Source: Candidatus Woesebacteria bacterium (lineage in GTDB: Bacteria > Patescibacteriota > Microgenomatia > UBA1406 > HO2-37-13b). From it: 64,000 bases of DNA. The stretch lies in contig JAGOSW010000001.1 in assembly GCA_018062135.1 (NCBI GenBank), positions 3,210 through 67,209 of the forward strand. Reading direction: 5' to 3'. Positions 139-62,640 of this stretch are shown piece after piece. The translations under genes were made by a program, and so were the position numbers. The notes under the pieces are model-generated. The model was not told where the DNA came from, did not search any database, and was given only the letters and a program-made list of their open reading frames with translations. Numbering within the stretch: the first letter of the stretch is position 1; each line of letters begins with the position of its first letter.

Positions 139-216
139 AACTTGATTATACTTCACACCACTTTGAATTTAAAAGTAACTCATAGTATAATTAAATCTTC
201 GTTTTTCATAAGACTC

Positions 217-1587
217 ATGGCTTTAACAGAATATCAGGGCACACCACCCACAGCCGACAACAAACTAGGTTTACTTAATACCATTAGGTTGGGAGTAGGA
301 CTAATGGGTGATGAGCCTCTAGAAGGTATTGAAAACATAGTTGATGCTCATGGGAGACAACTAGAAATAAATGTTTTAGGTAAGAGCGCGGTTTTAATTG
401 CAAATGGTACAGATGCAAGAACTGTTTTGGTTGATGAAGCTGACTCAACATCTAAAGACACACGAGATATGGATGTTTTCCGTGGAGTATTTGGCAACTT
501 TATACTCACCAGACCAGATTCCCAAGATTGGCGTCCCTTTAGAGCAGTAGCTCAACCAGGGTTCGATCGAGATCATACAGCTATTTATACTGGAATAGTA
601 AGAGAAGAGGCAGAGAGCTATGCGGCACATTTGGCCGAGCAAGCTGAAGGAGGATCAGTGGTTGTGGACGACTTACATGCGGATCTAACCGAAGTAACTG
701 CTCGCATAATATCAAGAGCGCTTTTTAGCCACAATCTTTCGGCAGAAGAAGTTATTCAGTTACGTGAAGCTATGAGGGTTTCGCTTAGTGCGGCGAGCGA
801 AGGAGTTCAAACAGCTGGATTAAGTTGGCGTTTAAGAGCCTTAACCCCAAGTCGCAATAGAGAAATTGAAGCAGCTAAAGCGAGATTGCAGGGATTTGCG
901 CAAGATCTCATAGATAGAAGGGTTTCCGCCGGAGTAAAAGGTGATTATCACGACATGCTAGATATGTTTTTAGCTGCTCATCAATCAGATCCAGAGAACT
1001 TTGACGATGGTTGGTTGCGAGATGAGGTGGCGGGATTTTTTGGTGCAGGTCATGACACTACAGCAAGTGCAGTTTTATTTACTTTAAGTAATGTATCGGG
1101 CTTACATGACGAGGCGTTAGAAGAACAATTACACATAGAGGCAGTTGACCCATCAAATGTTGGAGGACCTCAAATGACAACTGCTGTATTCAAAGAAACC
1201 TTACGTCGAAATCCGCCAATATGGCTTTTCGGGAGACGTGCAATAGAACCAATAGAGTTGCGTAATGGACATATTATCCCACGTAATGCAACTATAGGAA
1301 TTAGCCCTTATCTTATTCATCGTGATCCTGATGTATGGGAGGATCCCACTAGATTCGATCCAATGCGATTTACTAATGGATTTCGCCCTCAATCAGGTTC
1401 GTATATTCCTTTTGGTATGGGTGCGCGCTCGTGTGTTGGTGCTTCACTTGCGGCGGTAGAAGGGCCTATGATATTATCGGATCTATATAAACAATTCCCT
1501 CATATCGAAGTCGCTGCAATAACCACTAGCCCCGCTGCTATTCAAAGACCGAATAATCCTTTACGAGCCCAGTTTTATCTGCGATAA
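217..1587 (+). CDS. cytochrome P450
   Basis: I-helix FGAGHDTTAS, K-helix ETLR, and heme-thiolate loop FGMGARSCVGASLA (FxxGxRxCxG). The track ORF starts at TTG 142. ATG at 217 (MALTEYQG) is the more plausible start. Confidence 0.9.
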   Translation: MALTEYQGTPPTADNKLGLLNTIRLGVGLMGDEPLEGIENIVDAHGRQLEINVLGKSAVLIANGTDARTVLVDEADSTSKDTRDMDVFRGVFGNFILTRPDSQDWRPFRAVAQPGFDRDHTAIYTGIVREEAESYAAHLAEQAEGGSVVVDDLHADLTEVTARIISRALFSHNLSAEEVIQLREAMRVSLSAASEGVQTAGLSWRLRALTPSRNREIEAAKARLQGFAQDLIDRRVSAGVKGDYHDMLDMFLAAHQSDPENFDDGWLRDEVAGFFGAGHDTTASAVLFTLSNVSGLHDEALEEQLHIEAVDPSNVGGPQMTTAVFKETLRRNPPIWLFGRRAIEPIELRNGHIIPRNATIGISPYLIHRDPDVWEDPTRFDPMRFTNGFRPQSGSYIPFGMGARSCVGASLAAVEGPMILSDLYKQFPHIEVAAITTSPAAIQRPNNPLRAQFYLR

Positions 1588-12111: not shown

Positions 12112-12744
12112 TTATTCGGTAGGATATGTAGGTTGTGGATCGATTGGAATAATAGGTCCAGAAGATGTCGGTTGTGGCCTTGACGTTGGTGTGGCAGTCG
12201 GATAATATCTTCCTGTTGGATAGGTTGTTGGGTATGGTCGTGATGTTGGAGTTGGCGTTGATGCTGGCGTTCCTGTCGGCCCCCATGGATATGTAGGTGT
12301 TGGTAGCGGACCACCTGGTGTAGATGTAGGCATTGGACATCGATTACACATGTCGGCCATGAAATATCCCATGGACTGAATATTGCTTCTGATTTGATCA
12401 AGTTTTTCGCACGTAGTTAGTCCTGCTTGTGGTGCAAAAGCAGTATTCGGGCCTCCAGTAGGTTGTGGTGGACAATTAAGCTCTTTCTTAATTGAATCAA
12501 TATCTGCATGAGAGAACTCTACGTATTGTTGATATGAATCACATGAAATTGGCTCTCGGAAATTTGGATCGAGCGTATCCGCTCTTGGTGCCGTGTTAAT
12601 TTGTGTTTCTGATGTGCCGACTTGAGTAGAAACAGTAATTAGAAGATAGGTGAGAAGAACTAGGAAGCCAACTATAGAGAAAATTGCCCACTTGCTTCTC
12701 AATAAGCCAGTGTGAAGATTTTTTACATGGGCATCATTTTCCAT
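12112..12744 (-). CDS. membrane-anchored secreted protein with Cys-containing domain and Pro/Thr/Tyr-rich C-terminus
   Basis: N-terminal TM segment WAIFSIVGFLVLLTYLLITV, six Cys, and a C-terminal PTxTP/YP low-complexity tail. Chosen over two overlapping alternative-frame ORFs. Confidence 0.65.
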   Translation of the reverse strand: MENDAHVKNLHTGLLRSKWAIFSIVGFLVLLTYLLITVSTQVGTSETQINTAPRADTLDPNFREPISCDSYQQYVEFSHADIDSIKKELNCPPQPTGGPNTAFAPQAGLTTCEKLDQIRSNIQSMGYFMADMCNRCPMPTSTPGGPLPTPTYPWGPTGTPASTPTPTSRPYPTTYPTGRYYPTATPTSRPQPTSSGPIIPIDPQPTYPTE

Positions 12745-42069: not shown

Positions 42070-43299
42070 ATGACTAAAAAATTTAACCAGTGGTTGTTAC
42101 CTTTATTTTTTGTTCTCCTATTTATCCTCATCAGATCAATATACTTCGACAATCTCTTCAACTTCGTCTACGACCAAGTATCCTCATCAACAGAAATCTT
42201 AAAATTATGGAGGACTAAATCAATCTCCCTCCTTGGTCCGCCAATGTCGTTTACCGTTGAACATCGCCAAGTTTTCTTTGGAGGATTCTCGTATCTCATG
42301 CAATTCGTGTTTCTCGCCATCGGCAGCTTTGACCCCTTCCTTTCGACATACGCGTTTATGGTATTTAGTGCACTCATGATCTTTCCACTGTACTTTGGAA
42401 CCAAAAGACTCATAAATCAAACAGCAGCTATAATCATGGCAACGCTCTATACACTACTTCCATATTTCATCGAAAGTACCTCTTCAATGTGGAATCCATA
42501 TTTTATGTTTAGTCTTTTTCCTCTGATTGTCTATCTCATGGGATTATTCAAAACGAAAAAATCACCATGGCTTTTCCTATTTCTTTCCATTCTCGGAGGC
42601 ATATGTTTTCAACTTCATTACTTATTCATATTTGCGTGGGTCGGCATCGGCGTGTATTATTTCTTTGTCGAAAAACTTTCTCGAAAATTTCTAGCAATTT
42701 TCATTCTCGGATTTGCTATCGGTATAGCGAATCTTATGCTTTTTGAAGTTCGCAATAATTTTTATCTTTTACAAACACTCTGGATTTATGTGACGCACCC
42801 GAGAAATGTTTCACAGCATTGGATTGCTCCTTACTACATTTTGAGCGAAGTATTTTTCGCTATTCTTGCTGGACTTTCGATCTTTAGAAAAAGATTAAAC
42901 AATACGATGGTCGTGGCACTTTTTATTGTTCTTTTGCTCATGAGCATTCCATACATAACCACTGATGCTAGAGAGAGGAGTTATCCAAAAGATTGGTACT
43001 ACGAAGACGATATTGAGGTTTACAAAATTATTAAAGACAATCTTCCTACTTATCAGGATGTAAACATTTTTGAATTTTATGATGCAACCGGAAACGTTCC
43101 TAAGTATTTTCTAAAACTAGATAATGTTTTATTAGACTACGATGACTACTATGGAAACAAGTATCTGTATGTTTCCTATAAAGATGATCAATTTATGAAA
43201 AATGCAGCGTATGAAGTCGCAAGCTTTAATCCATCAAGAATCGTCAAAACCTGGAAAATAAATGATGTGTACAATCTCTTTTTGTTAGAAAGACTGTAA
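42070..43299 (+). CDS. polytopic membrane protein, possibly GT-C/ArnT-like glycosyltransferase
   Basis: About 9 TM helices plus a C-terminal soluble domain. The family assignment is tentative. Confidence 0.55.
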   Translation: MTKKFNQWLLPLFFVLLFILIRSIYFDNLFNFVYDQVSSSTEILKLWRTKSISLLGPPMSFTVEHRQVFFGGFSYLMQFVFLAIGSFDPFLSTYAFMVFSALMIFPLYFGTKRLINQTAAIIMATLYTLLPYFIESTSSMWNPYFMFSLFPLIVYLMGLFKTKKSPWLFLFLSILGGICFQLHYLFIFAWVGIGVYYFFVEKLSRKFLAIFILGFAIGIANLMLFEVRNNFYLLQTLWIYVTHPRNVSQHWIAPYYILSEVFFAILAGLSIFRKRLNNTMVVALFIVLLLMSIPYITTDARERSYPKDWYYEDDIEVYKIIKDNLPTYQDVNIFEFYDATGNVPKYFLKLDNVLLDYDDYYGNKYLYVSYKDDQFMKNAAYEVASFNPSRIVKTWKINDVYNLFLLERL

Positions 43300-51003: not shown

Positions 51004-51207
51004 ATGCCCCAAGATACCAATGAAGCAATTGAACGAGCAAAAGACGGAATAGAAGTTCTTAACGAATACCGAGATCCTACTCCAGCAGTCGCAGCAGATT
51101 CATCTTCATTACTTTCATCACCCCTCTTTCTGTACTCAATCTACGCCCTTTTTTTTATAATAATCTCTATAACCGTCTTATATATTCGCTTTAAAAACAG
51201 CACATGA
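51004..51207 (+). CDS. small membrane protein upstream of dsbB
   Basis: ATG 51004 (MPQDTNEA...) follows a TATACT box. C-terminal TM. Overlaps dsbB by 4 nt. The track ORF starts at 50860. Confidence 0.45.
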   Translation: MPQDTNEAIERAKDGIEVLNEYRDPTPAVAADSSSLLSSPLFLYSIYALFFIIISITVLYIRFKNST

Positions 51208-51611
51208 TTTTATATATCGCGTGGCTTCAATCAATCGTCGCAACACTTGGAAGTCTTTATTTTAGTGAAGTAATGAAGTTTCCACCTTGTGTACTCTGTT
51301 GGTATCAGCGCATCTTAATGTACCCACTTGTTTTTATTCTCGCCGTTGGCATGGTTAGAAAAGATAAAAAAGTCTATACATACGTTCTGCCATTAAGCAT
51401 TACGGGTCTTTGCATAGCTCTGTATCATAACTTACTTTATTACCAAATCATTCCGGAAAGCCTCGCGCCTTGCGTTAGTGGCGTATCTTGTACAACAAAA
51501 TTCATTCAATGGTTTGGCTTTGTAACAATTCCACTTTTATCTTTAATCGCGTTCACCGTTATTACAATCTGTATGTTAGTTACCTGGAAGAGTCTCGAGA
51601 AATCGAAGTAA
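51204..51611 (+). CDS. dsbB: disulfide bond formation protein B (DsbB/BdbC family)
   Basis: Four TM helices, CVLCWYQR (CxxC in loop 1) and a second Cys pair CVSGVSC. Confidence 0.85.
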   Translation: MILYIAWLQSIVATLGSLYFSEVMKFPPCVLCWYQRILMYPLVFILAVGMVRKDKKVYTYVLPLSITGLCIALYHNLLYYQIIPESLAPCVSGVSCTTKFIQWFGFVTIPLLSLIAFTVITICMLVTWKSLEKSK

Positions 51612-54631: not shown

Positions 54632-54847
54632 TTATTTCTTTTTCTTTGCTACTGTTTTCTTCTTAGCTACGACTTTCTTTTTAGGCGCTACTTTCTTTAC
54701 TATTTTCTTGACTGCTGCTTTAAGTCCTGTAGCCTTCTTAACCACTGACTTCTTTAATGTTTTCTTTGCTACTGTCTTCTTCTTAGCTACGACCTTCTTC
54801 TTTGCTACTGTTTTTTTAGCTGTTGTCTTTTTCTTTGCTGCTGGCAT
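54632..54847 (-). CDS. Lys/Ala-rich histone H1-like basic protein
   Basis: A 71-aa ORF built from repeated KKKTVAKK / VVAKKK units. AGGAGGGG lies upstream of the ATG. Confidence 0.6.
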   Translation of the reverse strand: MPAAKKKTTAKKTVAKKKVVAKKKTVAKKTLKKSVVKKATGLKAAVKKIVKKVAPKKKVVAKKKTVAKKKK

Positions 54848-54957: not shown

Positions 54958-56181
54958 TTATATCTTGATAAGCAATCCTGCGAGCACTGCTCCGACACCG
55001 AAGACTGCGAAGATCAGAGCGATTGTTAGTGAGTTCTGAGCAAGTCCAGTTTGTGGTAACGTCGGCTGCGTCGTAACATTTGGTCTGGTTGGTGATGGCG
55101 TATTAGTGACGTTTACAATAACTATGTCAGTTGGTGTAGGCGAGCTAATACTCGTTGGCGCTGGAGTTGCAGTTGGCGGATTATAGCTGCATGCGTTAGA
55201 TTGTTTTGCTGAGCTAGCTCCACATTCTTCATTAACTGCTTCAACAAAACATCCATATGAATGTCCTGCGATAGCCGTAAATGTTGCTTTTGTTCCTGTA
55301 ACTTTCTTGTTTGGATTATAGCCGTCTATTGGAAGACCTGTTGATTCATCACGGATAGTGACGAGATAATAACCTGCGCCTGATGACGCGTCCCAGGTGC
55401 ATTGTGCAGCTGATTCACTACAAGCTAGAGCTATATTCGTGACCGCATTAGGAATTGGACATGTTGTCGGGGTTGGTGCTGGCACTGTTGGGGTTGCGCT
55501 TGGTGTTACAGTAGCTGTCGGTGTTAAGGTCGCTGTTGGTGCTGGGGTAAAGGTCGGCTGGCCGGGTAATATCGTAGGTGTGGCTGTTGGTGTAAGTGTC
55601 GTCGTCGGTGTGAGCGTTACTGTTGGCGTTAATGTTACGGTAACCGTTGGCGTAAGGGTTGCTGTTGGTCCACAAGAAGGGTCGCCTGGATTTTGACATG
55701 CTAATGAACCGTCAGCTTGTTTTATACATTGCATATCATCTGCGCAACGAGGAACGGGTTGATCTTCTTCACATGGCTCACATAGACCAGGAAGTGGTGG
55801 GGTTGGCGGGGGTGTTCCCGACGGCGCTACACATATAATTGGTTCACTTCTCTTCTTACAGGATAAATCATCTGGGTTAATAATTTCACAATATACGGGA
55901 ATAGGGAGTGTTCTCGGGTCTAGATCTCTAAATGTATATGAAGTACCACTCGATACGGGTTGTTCGCCAATCACGTTACCTGAGCCATCAACGAGTCTTA
56001 TGATATAGGTTCCTTCTGTTTCCCAATTACAAGTAATTTGCTTTAGAGGAATAGCAACTTCTTCAGCTTCATTCTTTGTCGTTTGGCGTTCTTGCACAAA
56101 AATCATACCGATCACAAGTGATGCGACAAGAAATATGAGTCCTGCGACTAATCCAATTGTTTTCTTCCTTTGATTATTCAT
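54958..56181 (-). CDS. surface protein: N-terminal TM/signal, two Cys-bracketed Ig/FN3-like modules, Pro/Thr linker, LPQTG sorting signal
   Basis: The C-terminus TLPQTGLAQNSLTIALIFAVFGVGAVLAGLLIKI is an LPxTG motif plus a hydrophobic segment plus a basic residue. Confidence 0.75.
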   Translation of the reverse strand: MNNQRKKTIGLVAGLIFLVASLVIGMIFVQERQTTKNEAEEVAIPLKQITCNWETEGTYIIRLVDGSGNVIGEQPVSSGTSYTFRDLDPRTLPIPVYCEIINPDDLSCKKRSEPIICVAPSGTPPPTPPLPGLCEPCEEDQPVPRCADDMQCIKQADGSLACQNPGDPSCGPTATLTPTVTVTLTPTVTLTPTTTLTPTATPTILPGQPTFTPAPTATLTPTATVTPSATPTVPAPTPTTCPIPNAVTNIALACSESAAQCTWDASSGAGYYLVTIRDESTGLPIDGYNPNKKVTGTKATFTAIAGHSYGCFVEAVNEECGASSAKQSNACSYNPPTATPAPTSISSPTPTDIVIVNVTNTPSPTRPNVTTQPTLPQTGLAQNSLTIALIFAVFGVGAVLAGLLIKI

Positions 56182-56182
56182 A

Positions 56183-57724
56183 TTATATTGCTGGCTGGTC
56201 TACACAAACTCCCGAAATAGGTGGTATGACACAAGCTGGCAGATCTCCTCCTGGCGGCGGATTGCCTGGTGGGTTGCCAGGAGGATTTCCCGGCGGATTT
56301 CCTGGTGGGTTACCTTCGGTACAAGTGATTCTAATTCGCTTAGTACAGCTCTTGGCATTTCCACATTTCAGTCTAACGTCGTAACTTCCACCATCAGGAT
56401 ACTTATAAAAATGGTCTTCACCATCAGGTGTTCCTATGATCTGATCTATTCCATTCTCAGCACCTCTGAAATCATCATCATATCCTAATTCGCCACCGTT
56501 CTGGCCAGTGTAAGACTTAAAATGAGTTTCAGCATTGATTCGTGGACAACTATTTTGTGGTACCACATAACATTCTTGATCAGGATCAACATCAGGATAG
56601 TTTCCATCTGGGTCACCTGGGCAGCCATCATTTGGATTATCAGGATCATCAATTATTTCGGGTGGAATACATTGGCTAGAACAGCAGATGTTTTCTTGAG
56701 GCATGTTTGGACAGACTGGTCTATTTTCTGGATCATCCTTAAATTCTACGTTTACTTTATAACAACGACATTGATCACCGCGAGCTTGATGGAGACGGAA
56801 CCTAGCTCCTTCGTTATAATCTTCCCCTGCCTTTATGAGCGCCTCAGCACATTTTATACTGCTTCCATAGCGATCAAAGTAACTATCACTGTCATCAGTA
56901 TTAAGTGGAATAGGGGTAAGATCTGGCTGGCCAAAACACGAATCATTATTATATGCTCTAAACTCAATCTTTTTTATATCAGCACAACTCATGGTTTTGC
57001 CACATTCGCCTAAAAATTCAATTGTAAGTCGACCAATTATAAGATCTTTTATATCAGGGCTTTTTACATTTGGTGGTGTTAATGTTGGTTGTTGTGCATC
57101 TTTTGGTTCTTCATAATCGAGTTTTACTTCAACCTTTGTACAGTCTTTACATGTAGGTCCTGAACCACCTCCTGGACCGTCAGGACCAGTAGGGCCAGTG
57201 GGGCCACCTGGACCATCGGGAGGAGGAGTAGTACCACCTGATGGAGTATCGCCATCCGGCGGAGTACATACTAAAGAGGTGTTTTTTGTGTCGGTTGCAG
57301 TTTTGCTTCCACATGCATTTGTTACTGTTGCAGTAACTTTAACATCACATGTATATGTGCCTGTAAATTGAACTTCAACACTCTCCTGAATGTTCGTGGA
57401 AGGTTCTGTAGGGATAATCTCTCTTTCTCCCGAAGTAGCTGAGTATAAACCAGTTGTGCCATCAGAATTCGAAGTACTATCCGTTGAGCTGGAAACAGTA
57501 ACAACATATGTAAAAGGAACAGTACTATCTACTGTAAATTTACAAGTCACCATTTTTAGTACACCAACCGGGCAGCTATTAGCAGCCCTATTACGAATAT
57601 CAATACGGCCACTTACAAGCATGAGCCCTGCAAAAATACCACCGACAATAACAAAAAGAAGCAACATAGCAATTGCTATCTTTTTTGTATCGTATTCTTC
57701 TCTAATTTTATGTAAGTCAAACAT
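56183..57724 (-). CDS. Cys-rich surface/secreted protein with Gly-Pro-rich segment and GNPP x5 repeat
   Basis: Start placed at ATG 57724, directly after the upstream stop (the track has 57754). TM segment IAIAMLLLFVIVGGIFAGLMLV. Many Cys. Confidence 0.7.
   Translation of the reverse strand: MFDLHKIREEYDTKKIAIAMLLLFVIVGGIFAGLMLVSGRIDIRNRAANSCPVGVLKMVTCKFTVDSTVPFTYVVTVSSSTDSTSNSDGTTGLYSATSGEREIIPTEPSTNIQESVEVQFTGTYTCDVKVTATVTNACGSKTATDTKNTSLVCTPPDGDTPSGGTTPPPDGPGGPTGPTGPDGPGGGSGPTCKDCTKVEVKLDYEEPKDAQQPTLTPPNVKSPDIKDLIIGRLTIEFLGECGKTMSCADIKKIEFRAYNNDSCFGQPDLTPIPLNTDDSDSYFDRYGSSIKCAEALIKAGEDYNEGARFRLHQARGDQCRCYKVNVEFKDDPENRPVCPNMPQENICCSSQCIPPEIIDDPDNPNDGCPGDPDGNYPDVDPDQECYVVPQNSCPRINAETHFKSYTGQNGGELGYDDDFRGAENGIDQIIGTPDGEDHFYKYPDGGSYDVRLKCGNAKSCTKRIRITCTEGNPPGNPPGNPPGNPPGNPPPGGDLPACVIPPISGVCVDQPAI
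56249..56315 (-). repeat. imperfect 12-nt tandem repeat (x5) encoding GNPPGNPPGNPPGNPPGNPP
   Basis: The plus strand reads cctggcggcgga ttgcctggtggg ttgccaggagga tttcccggcgga tttcctggtggg. Confidence 0.7.
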
Positions 57725-57725
57725 A

Positions 57726-58175
57726 TTATTGTGGTACTTGTGAACTACACCCATCTGGACAAATTATTTGGATATTACTAATATTTATCGTCGGTTCTTC
57801 TGGAAGAGGGCACACTGACGGGGTAGGCGTAAGAGATGGCTCATTCACGGGTGTCGTTGGTATCGGTCCTTCGGTAATGACCGGTTCTGGCGACGGTGGT
57901 AGTATAACGGTAATATTTTTACAGCAAACTTGAATGCTTGAGTTGTCGCCACCTGTGCCAGTATCTCCTCCGATAATATTAACAAGTTGCTTGTCAGTAC
58001 CTAAACATGAAGCTTGATCAGTGACAAACCCTCCATCGATTTGGCATTGTTGCGCACCGTCAGCAAGTTGTGCTTTCGTTCCAGACTGTTGTGGCTTGCT
58101 AACTGTTAGTACAGAGATTACCAATAGCAAGATAAGTACGACTAATCCAGAAAGAATAACAGGTTTACTTTTCAT
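57726..58175 (-). CDS. small Cys-containing secreted protein, N-terminal anchor
   Basis: A 149-aa ORF with TM segment VILSGLVVLILLLVISVLT and a Pro-rich linker plus C-terminal Cys motif. Confidence 0.6.
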   Translation of the reverse strand: MKSKPVILSGLVVLILLLVISVLTVSKPQQSGTKAQLADGAQQCQIDGGFVTDQASCLGTDKQLVNIIGGDTGTGGDNSSIQVCCKNITVILPPSPEPVITEGPIPTTPVNEPSLTPTPSVCPLPEEPTINISNIQIICPDGCSSQVPQ

Positions 58176-58250
58176 AATAAAAACATACAGCTCAACGCCT
58201 TTAGATACATATTAGTATGTTGCAGAAATAAGTGCAAGTTTAACTCTAGT

Positions 58251-58997
58251 TTAGAGAATTAATCCTAACGTTATGACAATAAATCCGACAAGAATAACAG
58301 AAAGTACTGGCAGCGAAGCTATTCCACCAGTTGTTGGTAGTGTTGGATTTGAAGCCGCCTTTGGTGTAGATGTTGCTTGACCAGGCTTTGGTGTATTTGT
58401 TGCATTGACAATGATTATGTCTGTTGGTGTTGGCGTTTTGCTTGGTGTAACGTTTGGTGGGAGCGTTGGGCTCGGTCCTGTAGTTGGTGTTACCGTTGGA
58501 GAAAGTACGCCGGTGGGTGTTATTGATGGAGTAAGGGTACTTATTGGTGTTGGACTAGAAATGAGTGTTGGCTGTGGTGAAGATGAACATGAAGCCGACT
58601 TTTCATCACTGGTCGTACCACAATCATTATTAGCGACAACGGTACAAGTATAGGTTGTGCCAGATTCTGGAGTGTGGGTCACGGTTATTTTATCTGTACC
58701 CGAGCTTGCTGGAATATCGCCTTCTTTTACTATCGTGCCGTCACCCTCTTTAATGCTGTAATGATATGAAACACCTGGTTCACGGGTCCATTTACAAATA
58801 AAGCCATTCGCTGGACAGTTTGGTCCAGAAAGCGGGACACCTTCACCTTCATCTGCTCGCTTCGCGGGATTCTGAACTTGGTTTACAAGAAAATAACCCA
58901 CAATCATTGCCACGAGTGTGAAAGCAAGGATTGCCAGGATTGCCCCTGTCTTTTTATTTAAACCTGTACTGGATTCTATGGTGTGTGCTGCTTTCAT
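58251..58997 (-). CDS. surface protein: Cys-bracketed Ig/FN3-like module, Pro/Thr linker, LPTTG sorting signal
   Basis: The C-terminus NPTLPTTGGIASLPVLSVILVGFIVITLGLIL. The module CKWTREPGVSYHY...TYTCTVVANNDCG is paralogous to modules in 54958-56181. Confidence 0.75.
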   Translation of the reverse strand: MKAAHTIESSTGLNKKTGAILAILAFTLVAMIVGYFLVNQVQNPAKRADEGEGVPLSGPNCPANGFICKWTREPGVSYHYSIKEGDGTIVKEGDIPASSGTDKITVTHTPESGTTYTCTVVANNDCGTTSDEKSASCSSSPQPTLISSPTPISTLTPSITPTGVLSPTVTPTTGPSPTLPPNVTPSKTPTPTDIIIVNATNTPKPGQATSTPKAASNPTLPTTGGIASLPVLSVILVGFIVITLGLIL

Positions 58998-59776
58998 TGT
59001 GTTATTGCTTCTCCATCACATAGGAGACATTGGACTTCTATATCAAGTTTTGGTTTTACACATGCTACTGGTGTCGGCGATGGGGTAACAGTGACGGTTA
59101 CACCCGGCTTTGGTTTACAACAATATAGGTTATTCGCACATTTTCCAGCCGGGTTAGCTGCTGGCGGTGGTGTTTCGCATTCATTTAAGGGAATGCATTG
59201 GTTTGGATTTGGGCAAGTTGCAATAGGTGCGATGGTTGGAGTCGGTGTTGGCGCTTCAGAACAAGATACCCATTGGCCATCTCGATAGCGTAATAATTGA
59301 AATTTAGACTCAGAGCGACATTCCCAGCACGTACCATCACTACAAGGATTGCCTTTTGGTTTACATTCTCCATCGGCAGGAGCCTTACATCCTTTGCCAT
59401 CATAACCACTCTCCCATGGGCAACAACCAGCAGTGCATACCATTCCAATCTGATCAAGACGTGCTTTATACTTCGCCCCGTCATTACAAGATAACAATTG
59501 GATACTTGCATCATCTGAAAATGTGCTTACCTCATCGGATCCTTCTTCAGGTAACGGGCTAGGTTGACTTACTGGAGTGCTTGGCGTCATAGATTCTTGA
59601 GGCGCTGGTTTAACAGATGAATTATTAAGATAGAAGAGTACGCCCAATATAAGCGCCACCATAACAAGAAGCCCAAGAATTATGAGGGCAACTTTATTTT
59701 TAGCAGTAAATGAAGATTCCCTTTTCGGAATTACATCATCTGGCAAAGGTGTGAAATGTGTTGGATTATCAGCCAT
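58994..59776 (-). CDS. Cys-rich secreted protein, N-terminal anchor
   Basis: A 260-aa ORF with more than 20 Cys and TPTPT linkers. Overlaps the next gene by 4 nt. Confidence 0.7.
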   Translation of the reverse strand: MADNPTHFTPLPDDVIPKRESSFTAKNKVALIILGLLVMVALILGVLFYLNNSSVKPAPQESMTPSTPVSQPSPLPEEGSDEVSTFSDDASIQLLSCNDGAKYKARLDQIGMVCTAGCCPWESGYDGKGCKAPADGECKPKGNPCSDGTCWECRSESKFQLLRYRDGQWVSCSEAPTPTPTIAPIATCPNPNQCIPLNECETPPPAANPAGKCANNLYCCKPKPGVTVTVTPSPTPVACVKPKLDIEVQCLLCDGEAITQ

Positions 59777-59818: not shown

Positions 59819-60712
59819 TTACATAAAAAGTCTTTTCTGTTTCACATATAGTGTCATAAGATTGGCGGTAAGAATAGTAGTTATAAAAGGCTCTGCAACA
59901 AACCGAATTAATATTGTCGAATATGCGAATAAAGCAGCCCCAGATAAAAGGCCAATAACCACGTGTTGAGTGGGCAGCGCCGGGGAGGTTTTTGGCTCAG
60001 GAATCATTATGAGTGCAAGGAATGCGACTGAATTGAAGAATGCCTGAGTAACGATTTGGATTGTTTCAGCAGGCTGTTGTGATACGACTATATTGTAGGT
60101 AAAAAAGCAGAAAATATACGTCAGGAAAAAAGTTGCAGCATAATTAAATTTTCTAAATGCCCGAGTAAAGTAGAGGCAACCTAATAATAAGATTGATGCA
60201 ACAGCGATATTAAGAATTGGTACATGCGAAAGAAACTGTTGTTGCATATCGGCGCCCCACCAAGAGATAAGTAATGAGTCGGGTGCAAGTTTTAGGGCGT
60301 ACAATGCCTTGCTTACATAAAGCGCAAAGAAAAGTCCAAATGCAGTTGGATTGAATATGGGCAGATTCATAAACTTAAAAAAATATTTTCCGATGAAAAT
60401 GCCGACAAAGGCCAGGATAAACATCAACGGTGGATTTGTCGGATGAATAAGGAGATACACAAGTATGGAGCTAATGCCAATGTTAAATGGATTGACTGTC
60501 TGAATCTTTAACACATATCGCGCGATGTAGTAAGAAAGAAATCCTAAGCCGCCGCATAGAGCAAAGTTAACAAATAGCGCAGTTTTTTCCTGCGGTTTTT
60601 GTGCGCCAACATAGAGATCCCACGTGGATATTGCCATAAATGCTAGAAGAAAAAGGAAAAATTGGAAGAGAGGATTCTTAACATTGGCGAACTTTTTTAT
60701 CTCCGACAACAT
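59819..60712 (-). CDS. RnfD/NqrB-family-like integral membrane protein
   Basis: LLIHPTNPP......IFNPTAFG and IMIPEPKTSP, which corresponds to the FMxTDPVTSP flavinylation region of RnfD/NqrB. Confidence 0.7.
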   Translation of the reverse strand: MLSEIKKFANVKNPLFQFFLFLLAFMAISTWDLYVGAQKPQEKTALFVNFALCGGLGFLSYYIARYVLKIQTVNPFNIGISSILVYLLIHPTNPPLMFILAFVGIFIGKYFFKFMNLPIFNPTAFGLFFALYVSKALYALKLAPDSLLISWWGADMQQQFLSHVPILNIAVASILLLGCLYFTRAFRKFNYAATFFLTYIFCFFTYNIVVSQQPAETIQIVTQAFFNSVAFLALIMIPEPKTSPALPTQHVVIGLLSGAALFAYSTILIRFVAEPFITTILTANLMTLYVKQKRLFM

Positions 60713-60761
60713 ATAGTTTTGTGTATAATAACGTTACTTACAATTTTACACATAATTGATC

Positions 60762-61205
60762 ATGAATAGTAAAAATCTCGCAATGGGCCTCATCGTTCTT
60801 GCCGTAATAGCCTTAGCCGTATTTACATTAGGAAGTAAGCCAACAACTCAAAAAACCGAAACCCCTACACCAACAACAGCCGAAGTGCAGGTTGATGCAA
60901 AAACCGAATACAAAGATGGCACATATGAAGCAATAGGCAACTATACCTCACCAGCTCAGAAGGAGGAGGTTGCTATTTCACTTACCCTAAAAGATGGCTT
61001 GGTAACAGACGCAACATTTGAAGGAAAAGGAGTCCATGAAATATCAAAAAAAATGCAAGGAAAATTTAAAGAAGGCTTTACAGAAGAAGTTGTTGGAAAA
61101 CCGCTTGACGAAATTGCGCTTACTGTTGTAAACGGCTCTTCTTTAACTCCAAAAGGATTTATGGAAGCGGTAGAAAAGATAAAGGTAGAAGCCCAACAGT
61201 CATAA
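60762..61205 (+). CDS. FMN-binding domain protein, membrane-anchored/extracytoplasmic
   Basis: YKDGTYEA...Y.....V...L..G.I and C-terminal VVNGSSLTPKGF, which resembles the D.xSGAT flavinylation site. ATG at 60762. Confidence 0.65.
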   Translation: MNSKNLAMGLIVLAVIALAVFTLGSKPTTQKTETPTPTTAEVQVDAKTEYKDGTYEAIGNYTSPAQKEEVAISLTLKDGLVTDATFEGKGVHEISKKMQGKFKEGFTEEVVGKPLDEIALTVVNGSSLTPKGFMEAVEKIKVEAQQS

Positions 61206-61206
61206 A

Positions 61207-62079
61207 ATGGCCGATCTGGAATGTTCATTCGATTCGATGGGAACATCCTGGCATATTACAGTCTGGGATGATATCCCCGAACCGACATTTAGAGCCTTAG
61301 AGCAAACTATTCGTGCATACTGTTCTATATTTGATCATACATATTCACGTTTCATTAAAGACTCTTTTATATCACAACTTGCCGATAAAACAGGTGTGCA
61401 AGAGGTTCCTCCAGATTTCACACAGATTTTAAGAATGTACGAAGATTTATTTAAAGCGTCGGGTGAAAAGTTCACGCCACTCGTCGGAAATACTTTGAGT
61501 GATATGGGTTACGATGCGACCTATTCTTTACAGCGAAAAAAGTCAGTCCGACCTGTTCCACATTTCCTAAAAACAATCGCAATCATTGATGATCGACATA
61601 TTGATATAACTGAGAAAGTCACAATTGACATTGGTGCAATTGGAAAAGGTTTTGCCGTAGATGCGCTCGCAAACATTTTAGAATTAAGAGGAGTAACTCA
61701 CTATTTAGTAGATGGAAGTGGTGATATTCGTTATAGAGGACCAGGTCCTATAAAGGTCGGACTTGAGCATCCGCTAGACGTAAAGAAGGTAATTGGAAGT
61801 ATCGATTTTAGTTCTGGAGCAATGTGCGGCTCTGCGACAAATAGACGTTCGTGGCAAGGCCAACACCATATTATCGATCCACATACTATGTCGTCTACAA
61901 CGGACATTATCGCAGCGTGGGTTATTGCTGATACAGCGGCTCTTGCAGACGGACTTTCAACTGCATTATTTCTCTGTACTCCAGAACAATGTGAAAAAGA
62001 TTTTTCTTTTGAGTATTTGCTGTTGAATAAAGACCTAAAAGTAAAGAGATCTGCTGGTTTTAATGCTGAGCTGTATTAA
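61207..62079 (+). CDS. apbE: FAD:protein FMN transferase (ApbE family)
   Basis: MGTSWHITVWD, DIGAIGKGFAVD and HHIIDPHT motifs. Confidence 0.88.
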   Translation: MADLECSFDSMGTSWHITVWDDIPEPTFRALEQTIRAYCSIFDHTYSRFIKDSFISQLADKTGVQEVPPDFTQILRMYEDLFKASGEKFTPLVGNTLSDMGYDATYSLQRKKSVRPVPHFLKTIAIIDDRHIDITEKVTIDIGAIGKGFAVDALANILELRGVTHYLVDGSGDIRYRGPGPIKVGLEHPLDVKKVIGSIDFSSGAMCGSATNRRSWQGQHHIIDPHTMSSTTDIIAAWVIADTAALADGLSTALFLCTPEQCEKDFSFEYLLLNKDLKVKRSAGFNAELY

Positions 62080-62097
62080 AACTTGTATAATCGATGT

Positions 62098-62640
62098 ATG
62101 CGATATGTATCGTTCATAATAATCATTATTCTAGTGTTCGCTGGGTTAATGTATTACTTTTCATACGGAAGACTCCACAATAAGATCGAACCACGTCTTA
62201 ATATTACCTATCAAAACAGACCAACTTTAAGGTCGGATGTAAACATCATTAATGAACCCACAGGTGAATTGCCTTTAGAAGCCGAATCAGGAGGACAATG
62301 TGCGAATCTACCAAAGAAGCAAGATGTTCATGCACTTTATGTAAAGAGCGTTGCTAAAGATTGCGGCGCCTTGAATGATAATGAAGCTGTTATGGATGAA
62401 GCTGAATCAAAAAATGTTTTGAGATGCCTAGAAAATAGTATTACTGCTGGTCAATGCAGTAATAATAAAGCGTTTTTTACATTGCAGGGTTTTGAAGGAG
62501 CATCAGAAATATTTTTAGAATCGAAAGACTGCCTTTTAAATATAAAGAAATGGTCAACAACATCGCCATCTTGTGGATATTCTGAAGAATCTTGCGAAAA
62601 TATATCAGAAAAGTTTCCGTTCACTCTATGCGATATATAA
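62098..62640 (+). CDS. hypothetical membrane-anchored Cys-containing protein
   Basis: TATAAT at 62086-62091 lies 6 nt before ATG 62098. N-terminal TM. 8 Cys. Confidence 0.5.
   Translation: MRYVSFIIIIILVFAGLMYYFSYGRLHNKIEPRLNITYQNRPTLRSDVNIINEPTGELPLEAESGGQCANLPKKQDVHALYVKSVAKDCGALNDNEAVMDEAESKNVLRCLENSITAGQCSNNKAFFTLQGFEGASEIFLESKDCLLNIKKWSTTSPSCGYSEESCENISEKFPFTLCDI

What the first reader, a model, noticed from the sequence alone, without database searches (positions are those of the whole stretch)
54958..59776. Five-gene operon of paralogous Cys-rich, Pro/Thr-linker surface proteins, two with LPxTG-type sorting signals, with no sortase in the window
Five tightly packed minus-strand genes (58994-59776, 58251-58997, 57726-58175, 56183-57724, 54958-56181) have gaps or overlaps of 0-4 nt at three of the four junctions; the fourth (58176-58250) is a 75-nt gap. 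All five encode proteins with an N-terminal TM or signal anchor.

A recurring module is visible in three of the proteins:
- CKWTREPGVSYHY...TYTCTVVANNDCG.
- CNWETEGTYII...
- CTWDASSGAGYYLV...SYGCFVEAVNEECG.
- CKFTVDS...TYTCDVKVTATVTNACG.
This looks like a disulfide-bracketed Ig/FN3-like fold (C-x-W/F ... Y-x-C-x-V ... N-x-x-CG).

Two proteins end in LPQTG or LPTTG plus a hydrophobic tail, which is a sortase substrate signature. The other three end in a shared Cys motif (ACVKPKLDIEVQCLLCDG, VCPLPEEPTINISNIQIICPDG, ACVIPPISGVCVDQ). One carries a Gly-Pro-rich stretch (GPGGPTGPTGPDGPGGG) and a GNPP x5 tandem repeat.

Together this looks like a multi-component, disulfide-stabilised surface structure (adhesin, pilus or host-attachment apparatus) of a type I cannot name. 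A DsbB gene is present at 51204-51611, and two more Cys/Pro-rich secreted proteins lie at 12112-12744 and 62098-62640.
Basis: partly seen in the sequence, partly recalled or inferred. Interest (0 to 1): 0.65.

Follow-up and report, generated by a model that had tools for sequence, protein, structure and literature searches.

The report
Wall-anchored surface protein chain operon
Five neighbouring genes of an uncultivated ultra-small bacterium (Microgenomates) encode cysteine-rich surface proteins that look built to plug into one another in gene order, the last one in each chain being fixed to the cell wall. If that is right, it is a previously undescribed way of building a cell-surface fibre.

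Summary
Five tightly packed minus-strand genes (G1-G5) encode exported Cys-rich proteins, and G2 and G5 end in LPxTG plus a hydrophobic tail. The recurring module is a fibronectin-III-like sandwich. The cluster is confined to Microgenomates (4 of 185,579 species genomes) and all five genes are kept wherever the locus is fully covered. The window has no sortase, but a diverged version of the cluster (L017) has a class-F-like sortase directly upstream.

New finding: every cluster follows one grammar.
- The first protein carries only a C-terminal Cys-bracketed strand (the "clasp").
- Middle proteins carry an N-terminal FN3-like module lacking strand A, plus a clasp.
- The last protein carries such a module plus the sortase signal.

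A 2-Cys clasp always precedes a 4-Cys module. A 3-Cys clasp always precedes a 5-Cys module. This held in 14 of 14 adjacent gene pairs, 5 of them examined after the rule was written down. The sums are always even, although most single proteins have odd Cys counts.

Best reading (about 50%): an ordered, disulfide-locked, strand-complemented chain anchored by sortase, with variable "cargo" domains in G1 and G4 that differ sharply between strains. The assembly is inferred, not shown.

The parts
58994..59776 (-). G1, chain A initiator. Conserved cytoplasmic N-terminal peptide (HFTPLP), one TM segment, a 16-Cys ectodomain in two parts, a Pro/Thr linker and a C-terminal 3-Cys clasp. It has no FN3-like acceptor module.
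   Evidence: It has 19 Cys in every full-length orthologue. The L002 orthologue is reduced to N-peptide + TM + linker + clasp.
59018..59062 (-). G1 clasp, C-VKPKLDIEVQ-C-LL-C (Cys 239, 250, 253). Proposed donor strand with a CxxC.
   Evidence: It is conserved in all orthologues and in Roizmanbacteria P0036 (ACILPKVKVTVECLTC).
58251..58997 (-). G2, chain A anchor. Signal/anchor segment, a 5-Cys FN3-like module without strand A (aa ~61-140, 58578-58817), a Pro/Thr stalk, the conserved TPTDIIIVNATNTP strand, LPTTG (58326-58340) and a hydrophobic tail.
   Evidence: (weak PKD).
57726..58175 (-). G3, chain B initiator/cap. Signal/anchor segment, one 4-Cys knot (orthologues have two), a Pro/Thr linker and a 3-Cys clasp C-PLPEEPTINISNIQII-C-PDG-C (57747-57812).
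56183..57724 (-). G4, chain B middle subunit. It contains a 5-Cys FN3-like N-module (57266-57574), an 18-Cys beta-rich core and a PKD-like domain (about 56315-56587). It ends with a GNPP repeat linker (56255-56299) and a 2-Cys clasp C-VIPPISGV-C (56204-56233). The core and PKD part is hypervariable between strains.
54958..56181 (-). G5, chain B anchor. It contains a 4-Cys FN3-like N-module without strand A (55828-56043) and a 6-Cys knot, followed by a Pro/Thr linker. Then come a complete 6-Cys FN3 module with a Cys-bracketed strand A (55183-55461), the TPTDIVIVNVTNTP strand, LPQTG (55045-55059) and a hydrophobic tail.
51204..51611 (+). DsbB-family disulfide oxidoreductase. It is a likely oxidative-folding helper and is syntenic with the cluster in this clade. 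The Roizmanbacteria version of the cluster has VKOR nearby instead.

Best explanation
The locus encodes two ordered, heteromeric cell-surface protein chains: G1->G2 and G3->G4->G5.

Proposed steps:
- All five proteins are exported by Sec and oxidatively folded (DsbB lies nearby).
- G2 and G5 are attached to peptidoglycan through their LPxTG signals by a sortase encoded elsewhere in the genome.
- The N-terminal FN3-like module of G2, G4 and G5 lacks the first strand (A) and the Cys that bracket it.
- That strand is supplied in trans by the Cys-bracketed C-terminal 'clasp' of the protein encoded by the gene immediately upstream, and the joint is locked by intermolecular disulfide(s).
- Each chain therefore has a cap that only donates (G1, G3), middle subunits that accept and donate (G4), and a wall-anchored base that only accepts (G2, G5).
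- The strain-variable Cys-rich domains of G1 and G4 are the displayed 'cargo', most likely adhesive or recognition surfaces of an organism presumed to live attached to other cells.

What is shown: gene structure, FN3-like and PKD-like folds, conserved sorting signals, sortase linkage in a relative, the domain grammar, the Cys covariation and the strain hypervariability.

What is inferred: sortase processing in this genome, signal-peptide cleavage, clasp-to-module docking, the disulfide lock and the adhesive role.
For: 1. Fold. The AF2 model of G5 gives a six-strand N-module and a seven-strand C-module. Foldseek matches FnIII tandems and single domains. The G4 model matches strings of Ig-like sandwiches, and the G4 profile hits PKD repeats of giant adhesins.

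2. Sortase link. LPxTG is conserved in every orthologue. In L017 a class-F-like sortase (Pfam PF04203, precomputed hit; NCBIfam class F 6e-42, 142.9 bits, below the curated cut-off of 166) lies directly upstream on the same strand as the G1/G3-like, G4-like and G5-like genes.

3. Grammar. In six complete chains from five lineages the order is donor-only, then (acceptor+donor) repeated n times, then acceptor+sorting signal.

4. Cys covariation.
- The complete module is [C-strandA-C]+4 Cys.
- A 2-Cys clasp is always followed by a 4-Cys module.
- A 3-Cys clasp (with an extra CxxC-type Cys) is always followed by a 5-Cys module that keeps its own second Cys.
- This held in 14 of 14 adjacent pairs, 5 of them in lineages fetched after the rule was noted.
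- Among G4-like proteins alone, clasp type varies and the next module co-varies (6 of 6).

5. Parity. 12 of the first 14 Cys-containing proteins counted (window, L017, L018, Roizmanbacteria) have odd Cys totals. Cluster totals are even in all 7 complete clusters. Pairing a clasp with the protein's own module gives mixed parity.

6. Reduced G1. The L002 G1 is cut down to anchor + linker + clasp.

7. Strain comparison. Against a 97-100% identical background, divergence is confined to the G1 and G4 cargo domains (41-83%), while modules, clasps and anchors stay conserved.

8. Redox helpers. DsbB or VKOR lies near the cluster in two lineages.
Against:
- The AF2 models are low to moderate in confidence (mean pLDDT 55 and 61). 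The G4 clasp is modelled at pLDDT about 33.
- HMMs of the three clasps and of the G5 strand A do not detect one another (E > 1), so the claim that the clasp is a detached strand A rests on pattern, position and Cys bookkeeping only.
- Lineages are few and partly non-independent. For G4-like proteins alone the perfect association has P of about 0.07.
- Modules were classified partly by eye, and the automatic regex misassigned two cases.
- G2 has no positively charged tail after its hydrophobic segment.
- No sortase was seen in this genome's 64 kb window.
- The G1-type initiators look like uncleaved membrane anchors, which would tether chain A at both ends.
Confidence: 0.5

Rival explanations
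1. The products are independent surface proteins. G2 and G5 are ordinary sortase-anchored FN3 stalk adhesins. G1, G3 and G4 are separate membrane-tethered or secreted Cys-rich proteins, and the C-terminal Cys motif is just an intramolecular cap. The genes cluster because of duplication and co-regulation, not assembly.
For: Only G2 and G5 are clear paralogues. The motif HMMs do not cross-hit. Nothing shows physical contact. The whole neighbourhood is syntenic in the close relatives, so co-conservation within the clade is weak evidence.
Against: This reading does not explain several observations. Exported proteins keep odd Cys counts while cluster totals are even. Clasp type co-varies with the next gene's module type. 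The donor / acceptor+donor / acceptor+anchor order recurs in five lineages. G1 can shrink to anchor + clasp only.
Confidence: 0.25
2. The same contacts form, but the function is structural. The chains are membrane-to-wall tethers or envelope scaffolds: the initiator stays in the membrane through its N-terminal helix and the last subunit is bound to peptidoglycan. They are not outward-projecting adhesive fibres.
For: G1-type initiators have a long, conserved cytoplasmic N-peptide (HFTPLP / NYTPL) and lack the post-TM 'NRAA'-like motif that the other proteins carry. Chains would then be fixed at both ends.
Against: Strain-level mosaicism and hypervariability in G1 and G4 are more typical of exposed recognition surfaces. 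G3-type initiators do carry the putative cleavage-site motif.
Confidence: 0.12
3. It is a divergent member of the recently described Pam pilus system of CPR bacteria: Ig-like pilins polymerised by donor-strand exchange with membrane-anchored PapD-like chaperones.
For: The Pam paper reports homologues in Microgenomatia, Ig-like folds, paired Cys, an FnIII x2 anchor protein (PamR) with a C-terminal TM helix, and strand donation (bioRxiv 10.64898/2026.03.03.709456).
Against: The operon has no PapD/FimC-like two-domain chaperone and no ATP-synthase neighbourhood. [quoted passage not shown] Sortase signals are not described for Pam. No Pam structure appeared among the Foldseek hits. Pam sequences could not be compared directly.
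Confidence: 0.05
4. It is a classical Gram-positive sortase-polymerised pilus, with pilins joined by isopeptide bonds made by a pilus-specific sortase.
For: An operon of LPxTG proteins with Ig-like domains, with a sortase gene adjacent in L017.
Against: Only 2 of the 5 proteins carry LPxTG. There is no CnaA/CnaB or SpaA-type domain hit and no YPKN pilin motif or E-box. The linked sortase is class-F-like, not class C.
Confidence: 0.03

Closest known systems
Sortase-anchored LPXTG surface proteins of Gram-positive bacteria (MSCRAMM-type stalk adhesins)
   Same: N-terminal export signal, Ig-like (FN3/PKD) domains, a Pro/Thr-rich wall-spanning stalk, a C-terminal LPxTG plus hydrophobic segment, and a sortase gene adjacent in a relative.
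   Different: The host is a CPR bacterium (Microgenomates). The charged tail is absent (G2) or a single Lys (G5). The anchored proteins carry an N-terminal module lacking strand A. They are always preceded by a gene whose product ends in a Cys clasp. No Pfam or NCBIfam model reaches its cut-off.
Type V pili of Bacteroidia (FimA/Mfa1; protease-mediated strand exchange)
   Same: Five-gene clusters with tip, shaft and anchor roles. A C-terminal donor strand of one subunit replaces the N-terminal strand of the next once the N-terminal membrane anchor has been removed (PMC13655056; PMC8512630). This is the closest mechanistic analogue of the proposed clasp-to-N-module docking.
   Different: Type V pilins are lipoproteins of diderm bacteria, are processed by gingipains, form homopolymeric shafts and have no covalent lock. 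Here the chains are short and heteromeric, their order follows gene order, disulfide locks are proposed, and a sortase provides the anchor in a monoderm-like envelope. There is no sequence or fold-level homology.
Pam pili of CPR bacteria (bioRxiv 10.64898/2026.03.03.709456)
   Same: CPR-specific, Ig-like folds, strand donation without a trans-envelope machine, paired cysteines, and an FnIII-containing anchor subunit.
   Different: No PapD-like chaperones are present. Domain order and donor position differ. The anchor is a sortase signal rather than a plain TM helix. The genomic neighbourhood differs. Homology could not be tested.
Chaperone-usher pili (Pap/Fim/Saf)
   Same: Ordered heteropolymers of incomplete Ig-like subunits completed by a neighbour's strand. 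SafDAA-dsc was the top, but weak, Foldseek hit for G4.
   Different: In those systems the donor is an N-terminal extension and the missing strand is the C-terminal G strand. They need a periplasmic chaperone and an outer-membrane usher, neither of which is present here.
Sortase-anchored cellulosome scaffolds (cohesin-dockerin)
   Same: A wall-anchored base protein, with other subunits attached through a small C-terminal docking module. This comparison rests on my own knowledge and is an analogy only.
   Different: Dockerins are Ca-binding helical modules, not Cys-bracketed strands. No cohesin or dockerin is detected in the five proteins.

Membership tests
LPXTG sortase substrates | C-terminal LPXTG-type pentapeptide | tested here: met
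   G2 has LPTTG and G5 has LPQTG. Orthologues keep LP[TVS][TS]G and LPQTG. Distant relatives have LPQAG, LPKAG, LPVSG or PPQAG.
LPXTG sortase substrates | Hydrophobic segment followed by a positively charged tail | tested here: inconclusive
   The hydrophobic segment is present in both proteins. The tail is a single Lys in G5 (…LLIKI) and absent in G2 (…LGLIL). Pfam Gram_pos_anchor scores 15.5 bits, below the 20-bit cut-off.
LPXTG sortase substrates | A sortase encoded in the same genome | not testable with these tools
Indirect support comes from the class-F-like sortase adjacent to the homologous cluster in L017 and from the literature. Sortase is reported as near-ubiquitous in Microgenomates (PMC6744442), and a complete Microgenomates genome encodes one (PMC7143001).
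Fibronectin type III / PKD Ig-like domains | Seven-strand beta-sandwich matching FnIII structures | tested here: met
   The G5 model matches FnIII domains in Foldseek at E 1e-5, TM about 0.7 and rmsd 2.2 A to single domains. Module pLDDT is about 80-88.
Fibronectin type III / PKD Ig-like domains | Sequence match above the Pfam gathering threshold | tested here: not met
   PKD scores 17.9 bits against a 23.5-bit cut-off for G2, and PKD_4 scores 10.9 bits for G4. The G4 profile does hit PKD repeats in other proteins.
Sortase-polymerised Gram-positive pili | Pilin subunits all with LPXTG, CnaA/CnaB-type domains, a pilin motif and a class C sortase in the operon | tested here: not met
   Only 2 of 5 proteins have LPxTG. 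There are no SpaA or Cna hits. The linked sortase in L017 is class-F-like.
Pam pili (CPR) | PamA/B-type pilins (9-strand NTD + linker strand + truncated Ig CTD), membrane-anchored PapD-like chaperones and an ATP-synthase neighbourhood | tested here: not met
   The operon has no two-domain chaperone-like protein, and the window neighbourhood holds ApbE, CAP, BipA and DsbB. Sequence and structure comparison with Pam proteins was not possible.
Donor-strand-complemented fibres (general principle) | An incomplete Ig-like fold in one subunit completed by a strand of the neighbour | tested here: inconclusive
   In favour: the six-strand G5 N-module against the seven-strand C-module, the domain grammar, and the Cys covariation in 14 of 14 pairs. 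Missing: a multimer model or an experiment. The clasp and strand-A HMMs do not cross-hit.

The most novel reading that the evidence does not exclude
This would be a previously undescribed class of bacterial surface fibre, confined so far to Microgenomates (CPR). It would consist of short heteromeric chains whose subunit order equals gene order. Each joint would be a 'split FN3 domain': the Cys-bracketed first strand sits at the extreme C-terminus of subunit n and the rest of the sandwich at the mature N-terminus of subunit n+1. The joint would be locked by one or two intermolecular disulfides. When the acceptor keeps its own second Cys, a CxxC in the clasp compensates. The last subunit is fixed to peptidoglycan by a sortase. 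Recombining, strain-variable Cys-rich domains in the cap and middle subunits would provide host or partner recognition.
Probability: 0.45. Interest if true: 0.85.

Novelty: new variant of a known kind. Interest (0 to 1): 0.72.

Why it matters
CPR/Patescibacteria are thought to make up a large share of bacterial diversity and are thought to live attached to other cells, yet the molecules on their surface are almost unknown. The first CPR-specific pilus (Pam) was described only in 2026.

This locus would add a second, mechanistically distinct solution. It would combine sortase anchoring, typical of Gram-positive bacteria, with strand complementation, typical of Gram-negative and Bacteroidia pili, and add a disulfide lock.

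The sequence rule (2-Cys clasp to 4-Cys module, 3-Cys clasp to 5-Cys module, order equal to gene order) makes sharp predictions. These can be tested with recombinant proteins without culturing the organism.

The hypervariable G1 and G4 domains are candidates for host-specificity determinants. A self-assembling, covalently locking split FN3 pair could also be useful as a protein-engineering tool.

Tried and rejected
- Pfam and NCBIfam on all five proteins gave nothing above cut-off.
- Profile searches of PDB sequences with the G4 and G5 alignments returned only Pro/Thr-linker noise.
- HMMs of the G1, G3 and G4 clasps and of the G5 strand A, run against all 628 six-frame segments of the window, each found only itself. 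There is therefore no statistical sequence evidence that the clasps are homologous to strand A or to each other.
- Sigma-70 promoter and intrinsic-terminator scans gave no more sites than shuffled controls, so they say nothing about operon structure.
- A sortase was sought in the window by TLxTC motif, by Pfam on about 55 ORFs, and by phmmer and tblastn with the L017 sortase. All were negative.
- The search for related loci on metagenomes with broad G4-like alignments failed because no stretch was conserved enough. A degenerate DNA pattern for RLHQAxGxxCRxY returned 33 stretches, only 2 of them true: L024, another strain of the window species, and L033.
- Correlation between clasp length and the N-module pre-strand length, computed by hand from the spacings, was r of about 0.5 with n = 10. 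It is not significant and was dropped.
- The 297-aa RnfD-like gene upstream was considered as a sixth operon member. It was rejected because L002 has three unrelated genes inserted between it and G1, and the other lineages lack it.
- The proteins at 12112-12744 and 62083-62640 were considered as further members. They were rejected because they share no similarity beyond the linker.


Full report
**1. The observation**

The five minus-strand ORFs are present as described. They are G1 58994-59776, G2 58251-58997, G3 57726-58175, G4 56183-57724 and G5 54958-56181.

- A longer G4 ORF starts at 57754, but the orthologue alignment favours 57724.
- G1 and G2 overlap by 4 nt. G3/G4 and G4/G5 are 1 nt apart. 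G2-G3 are separated by 75 nt.
- Each product has an N-terminal hydrophobic segment. G2 and G5 have a second one after LPTTG and LPQTG.
- The GNPP repeat (period 12, 3.8 copies, 56255-56299) and a G/P-rich repeat are real.
- DsbB at 51204-51611 is confirmed.
- No Pfam or NCBIfam model reaches its cut-off on any of the five proteins. The only hits are weak: PKD for G2 and G4, and Gram_pos_anchor for G5.

**2. Organism and distribution**

Window gene content and the homologues place the locus in Microgenomates (OP11, CPR). The G4 orthologue P0019 is from 'Microgenomates bacterium OLB23'.

The family is very narrow:
- 9 G4 homologues were found among 5.8 billion clustered proteins.
- In a profile scan of 1.84 billion representatives, 4 clusters scored below 1e-30 and 29 below 1e-3.
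- 4 of 185,579 GTDB species genomes carry it, one of them a closed 938-kb chromosome.

All five genes are kept in every locus that covers the region: L001, L002, L003/L004, L005, L006, L009, L012 and L024. The whole neighbourhood is syntenic in these close relatives, so co-conservation within the clade is only weak evidence. In L002, however, three unrelated genes were inserted upstream without disturbing the cluster.

**3. Folds**

AF2 models built from shallow alignments are low to moderate overall (mean pLDDT 54.7 for G4 and 60.7 for G5). The G5 modules reach about 80-88.

- G5 matches tandem and single fibronectin type III domains in the PDB (E 1e-5, TM about 0.7, rmsd 2.2 A to single domains).
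- G4 matches strings of Ig-like sandwiches: SafDAA-dsc, SiiE and complement MG domains, all at low TM.
- The C-terminal part of the G4 profile hits PKD repeats of giant adhesins.
- The G2 module and the G5 C-module are clear paralogues. The G4 and G5 N-modules are distant relatives (hhalign P 8e-5 and 1.7e-4) with the same Cys framework and spacing.
- G1 and G3 lack the module. They carry small Cys knots instead.

**4. Sortase**

The window has no sortase. This is not an anomaly. Sortase is reported as near-ubiquitous in Microgenomates (PMC6744442), and a complete Microgenomates genome encodes one (PMC7143001).

The sorting motifs are conserved. In a diverged version of the cluster (L017, GCA_964508775.1) a sortase gene lies directly upstream, on the same strand, of a G1/G3-like, a G4-like and a G5-like (LPQAG) gene. 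Its best NCBIfam match is class F (6e-42, 142.9 bits, below the curated cut-off of 166), not the pilus-specific class C.

**5. The new regularity**

I compared the window with diverged clusters in five further lineages:
- Roizmanbacteria L014-L016
- L017
- L018
- L020 and L021

The same grammar recurs in all of them.

- The first protein of a run has no FN3-like module. It ends, after a Pro/Thr/Gly linker, in a Cys-bracketed strand at the extreme C-terminus (the 'clasp').
- Middle proteins start, 3-15 residues after a conserved post-TM '...RNRAA'-like motif, with an FN3-like module that lacks strand A. They also end in a clasp.
- The last protein starts with such a module and ends in the sortase signal.

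Six complete chains fit this grammar, with lengths 2, 3, 2, 3, 4 and 4.

The only complete modules are the C-modules of G5-like proteins. They have six Cys arranged as [C-x12-C]-x4-6-[C-x-W ... Y-x-C ... C-G ... C]. The N-modules come in two types:
- A 4-Cys type, which lacks the whole [C-strandA-C] unit.
- A 5-Cys type, which lacks the first Cys and the strand but keeps the second Cys. Its first Cys-to-Cys gap (5-9 residues; 6 in G2) fits the complete module's second gap of 4-6, not its first gap of 12.

Clasps also come in two types:
- 2-Cys: C-x8-10-C.
- 3-Cys: C-x10-16-C-x0-3-C, usually CxxC.

In all 14 adjacent gene pairs a 2-Cys clasp precedes a 4-Cys module (4 cases) and a 3-Cys clasp precedes a 5-Cys module (10 cases). 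Five of these pairs, in L020 and L021, were examined after the rule had been written in the notebook (entry 5).

Further support for the rule:
- Among G4-like proteins alone the clasp type varies, and the downstream module co-varies (6 of 6, P about 0.07). Over all pairs P is about 0.001 if independence is assumed.
- The sums 2+4=6 and 3+5=8 are even. Pairing a clasp with its own protein's N-module gives mixed parity.
- Most of the individual exported proteins have odd Cys totals (window: 19, 5, 7, 25, 16), while every complete cluster total is even: 72, 78, 60, 26, 60, 62 and 70.
- In the L006 G5, the Cys of 'QCTW' and of 'YxCFV' were lost together, as expected for a strand B to strand F disulfide.
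- The L002 G1 is reduced to N-peptide, TM, linker and clasp, so the clasp is the indispensable part.

**6. Interpretation**

The simplest reading is that the clasp of subunit n supplies the missing first strand of subunit n+1 and is locked to it by disulfide(s). Under this reading there are two chains, G1->G2 and G3->G4->G5, each ending in a wall-anchored base.

Three tested approaches gave no support:
- The clasp and strand-A HMMs do not cross-detect.
- The G4 clasp is modelled with very low confidence.
- No multimer prediction could be run.

I therefore put this model at about 0.5.

**7. Variability**

Two other strains of the window species (L011 and L024) are 97-100% identical in flanking genes, G2, most of G5, the G4 N-module and the clasps. 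Identity falls sharply elsewhere:
- 58-68% in G1 59300-59520
- 77-90% in the G3 knot
- 41-83% across G4 56230-57250

At the protein level the L011 allele of G4 is a mosaic. It matches the window allele for aa 1-150 and the allele of another species (P0018) for aa 250-470. Connectors are conserved and cargo domains recombine, which fits exposed recognition surfaces.

**8. Comparison with known systems**

- It is not a classical sortase-polymerised pilus. Only two proteins carry LPxTG, there are no Cna/SpaA domains, and no class C sortase is linked.
- It does not show the defining parts of the Pam pilus, namely PapD-like chaperones, the Pam pilin architecture and the ATP-synthase neighbourhood. 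Direct comparison with Pam sequences was impossible.
- The closest mechanistic analogue is the type V pilus, in which a C-terminal donor strand replaces the N-terminal anchor strand of the next subunit. The proteins, envelope, processing and covalent lock are all different.
- As a category, the locus is a sortase-anchored Ig-like surface-protein system with an apparently new assembly logic.

**9. Verdict**

The assembly itself remains an inference.

Noticed in passing
window 59300-59520 (G1), 56230-57250 (G4); loci L011, L024: Near-identical strains (97-100% nt identity in flanking genes) differ by 17-59% in these two segments. The L011 G4 is a mosaic of the window allele and the allele of another species.
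   Followed up: yes
window 59819-62079: A 297-aa multi-TM protein has a faint RnfD/NqrB hit in an orthologue. It lies divergent to a 149-aa FMN-binding-like protein (weak PplA match) and an ApbE flavin transferase. This could be an extracytoplasmic flavoprotein or electron-transfer module. It is syntenic with the cluster in the close clade only.
   Followed up: partly
window 142-1587: A cytochrome P450 (Pfam 8.8e-49) in a CPR genome, which is unusual for organisms described as obligate fermenters with minimal metabolism.
   Followed up: no
G2-G5 and all distant relatives, 5-15 aa after the N-terminal TM segment: A conserved post-TM motif (RIDIRNRAA, VQNPAKRADE, TTKNEAEE, QNRAE and similar) is shared by otherwise unrelated exported proteins of these lineages. 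It may be a lineage-typical signal-peptidase or processing site. The G1-type initiators lack it and carry a conserved cytoplasmic HFTPLP / NYTPL peptide instead.
   Followed up: partly
window 55090-55130 (G5) and 58370-58410 (G2), approximate: A conserved hydrophobic strand, (S/T)PTPTDI[IV]IVN-x-TNTP, with an invariant N-x-T sequon lies about 20-25 aa upstream of LPxTG in both anchored proteins and in Roizmanbacteria and P0009 relatives. A PMT_2-like glycosyltransferase is at 42070-43299, and a PMT-like gene lies next to VKOR in the Roizmanbacteria locus. This may indicate stalk glycosylation or another docking strand.
   Followed up: no
window 57726-58175 (G3): The window's G3, and that of its conspecific strain L024, lacks the second 4-Cys knot present in the orthologues of the other species (7 versus 11 Cys). 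This is a recent domain loss that preserves the clasp.
   Followed up: partly
window 54632-54847: A 71-aa Lys/Ala-rich histone-H1-like protein lies immediately downstream of G5. It is conserved in synteny, with a variable middle (68% identity in one 120-nt window between strains).
   Followed up: no
loci L008, L009, L010 (CAZTOA010000007.1, OZ246401.1, CAZTFB010000002.1): Three public MAGs carrying this Microgenomates cluster, one of them a closed 938-kb chromosome, are titled 'uncultured Gammaproteobacteria bacterium'. These are probably mislabelled records.
   Followed up: no
L018 5405-7329: In one distant lineage the chain cluster is preceded by two proteins with PilX/minor-pilin-like N-termini and followed by a subtilisin (Peptidase_S8) and a secreted nuclease.
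   Followed up: no
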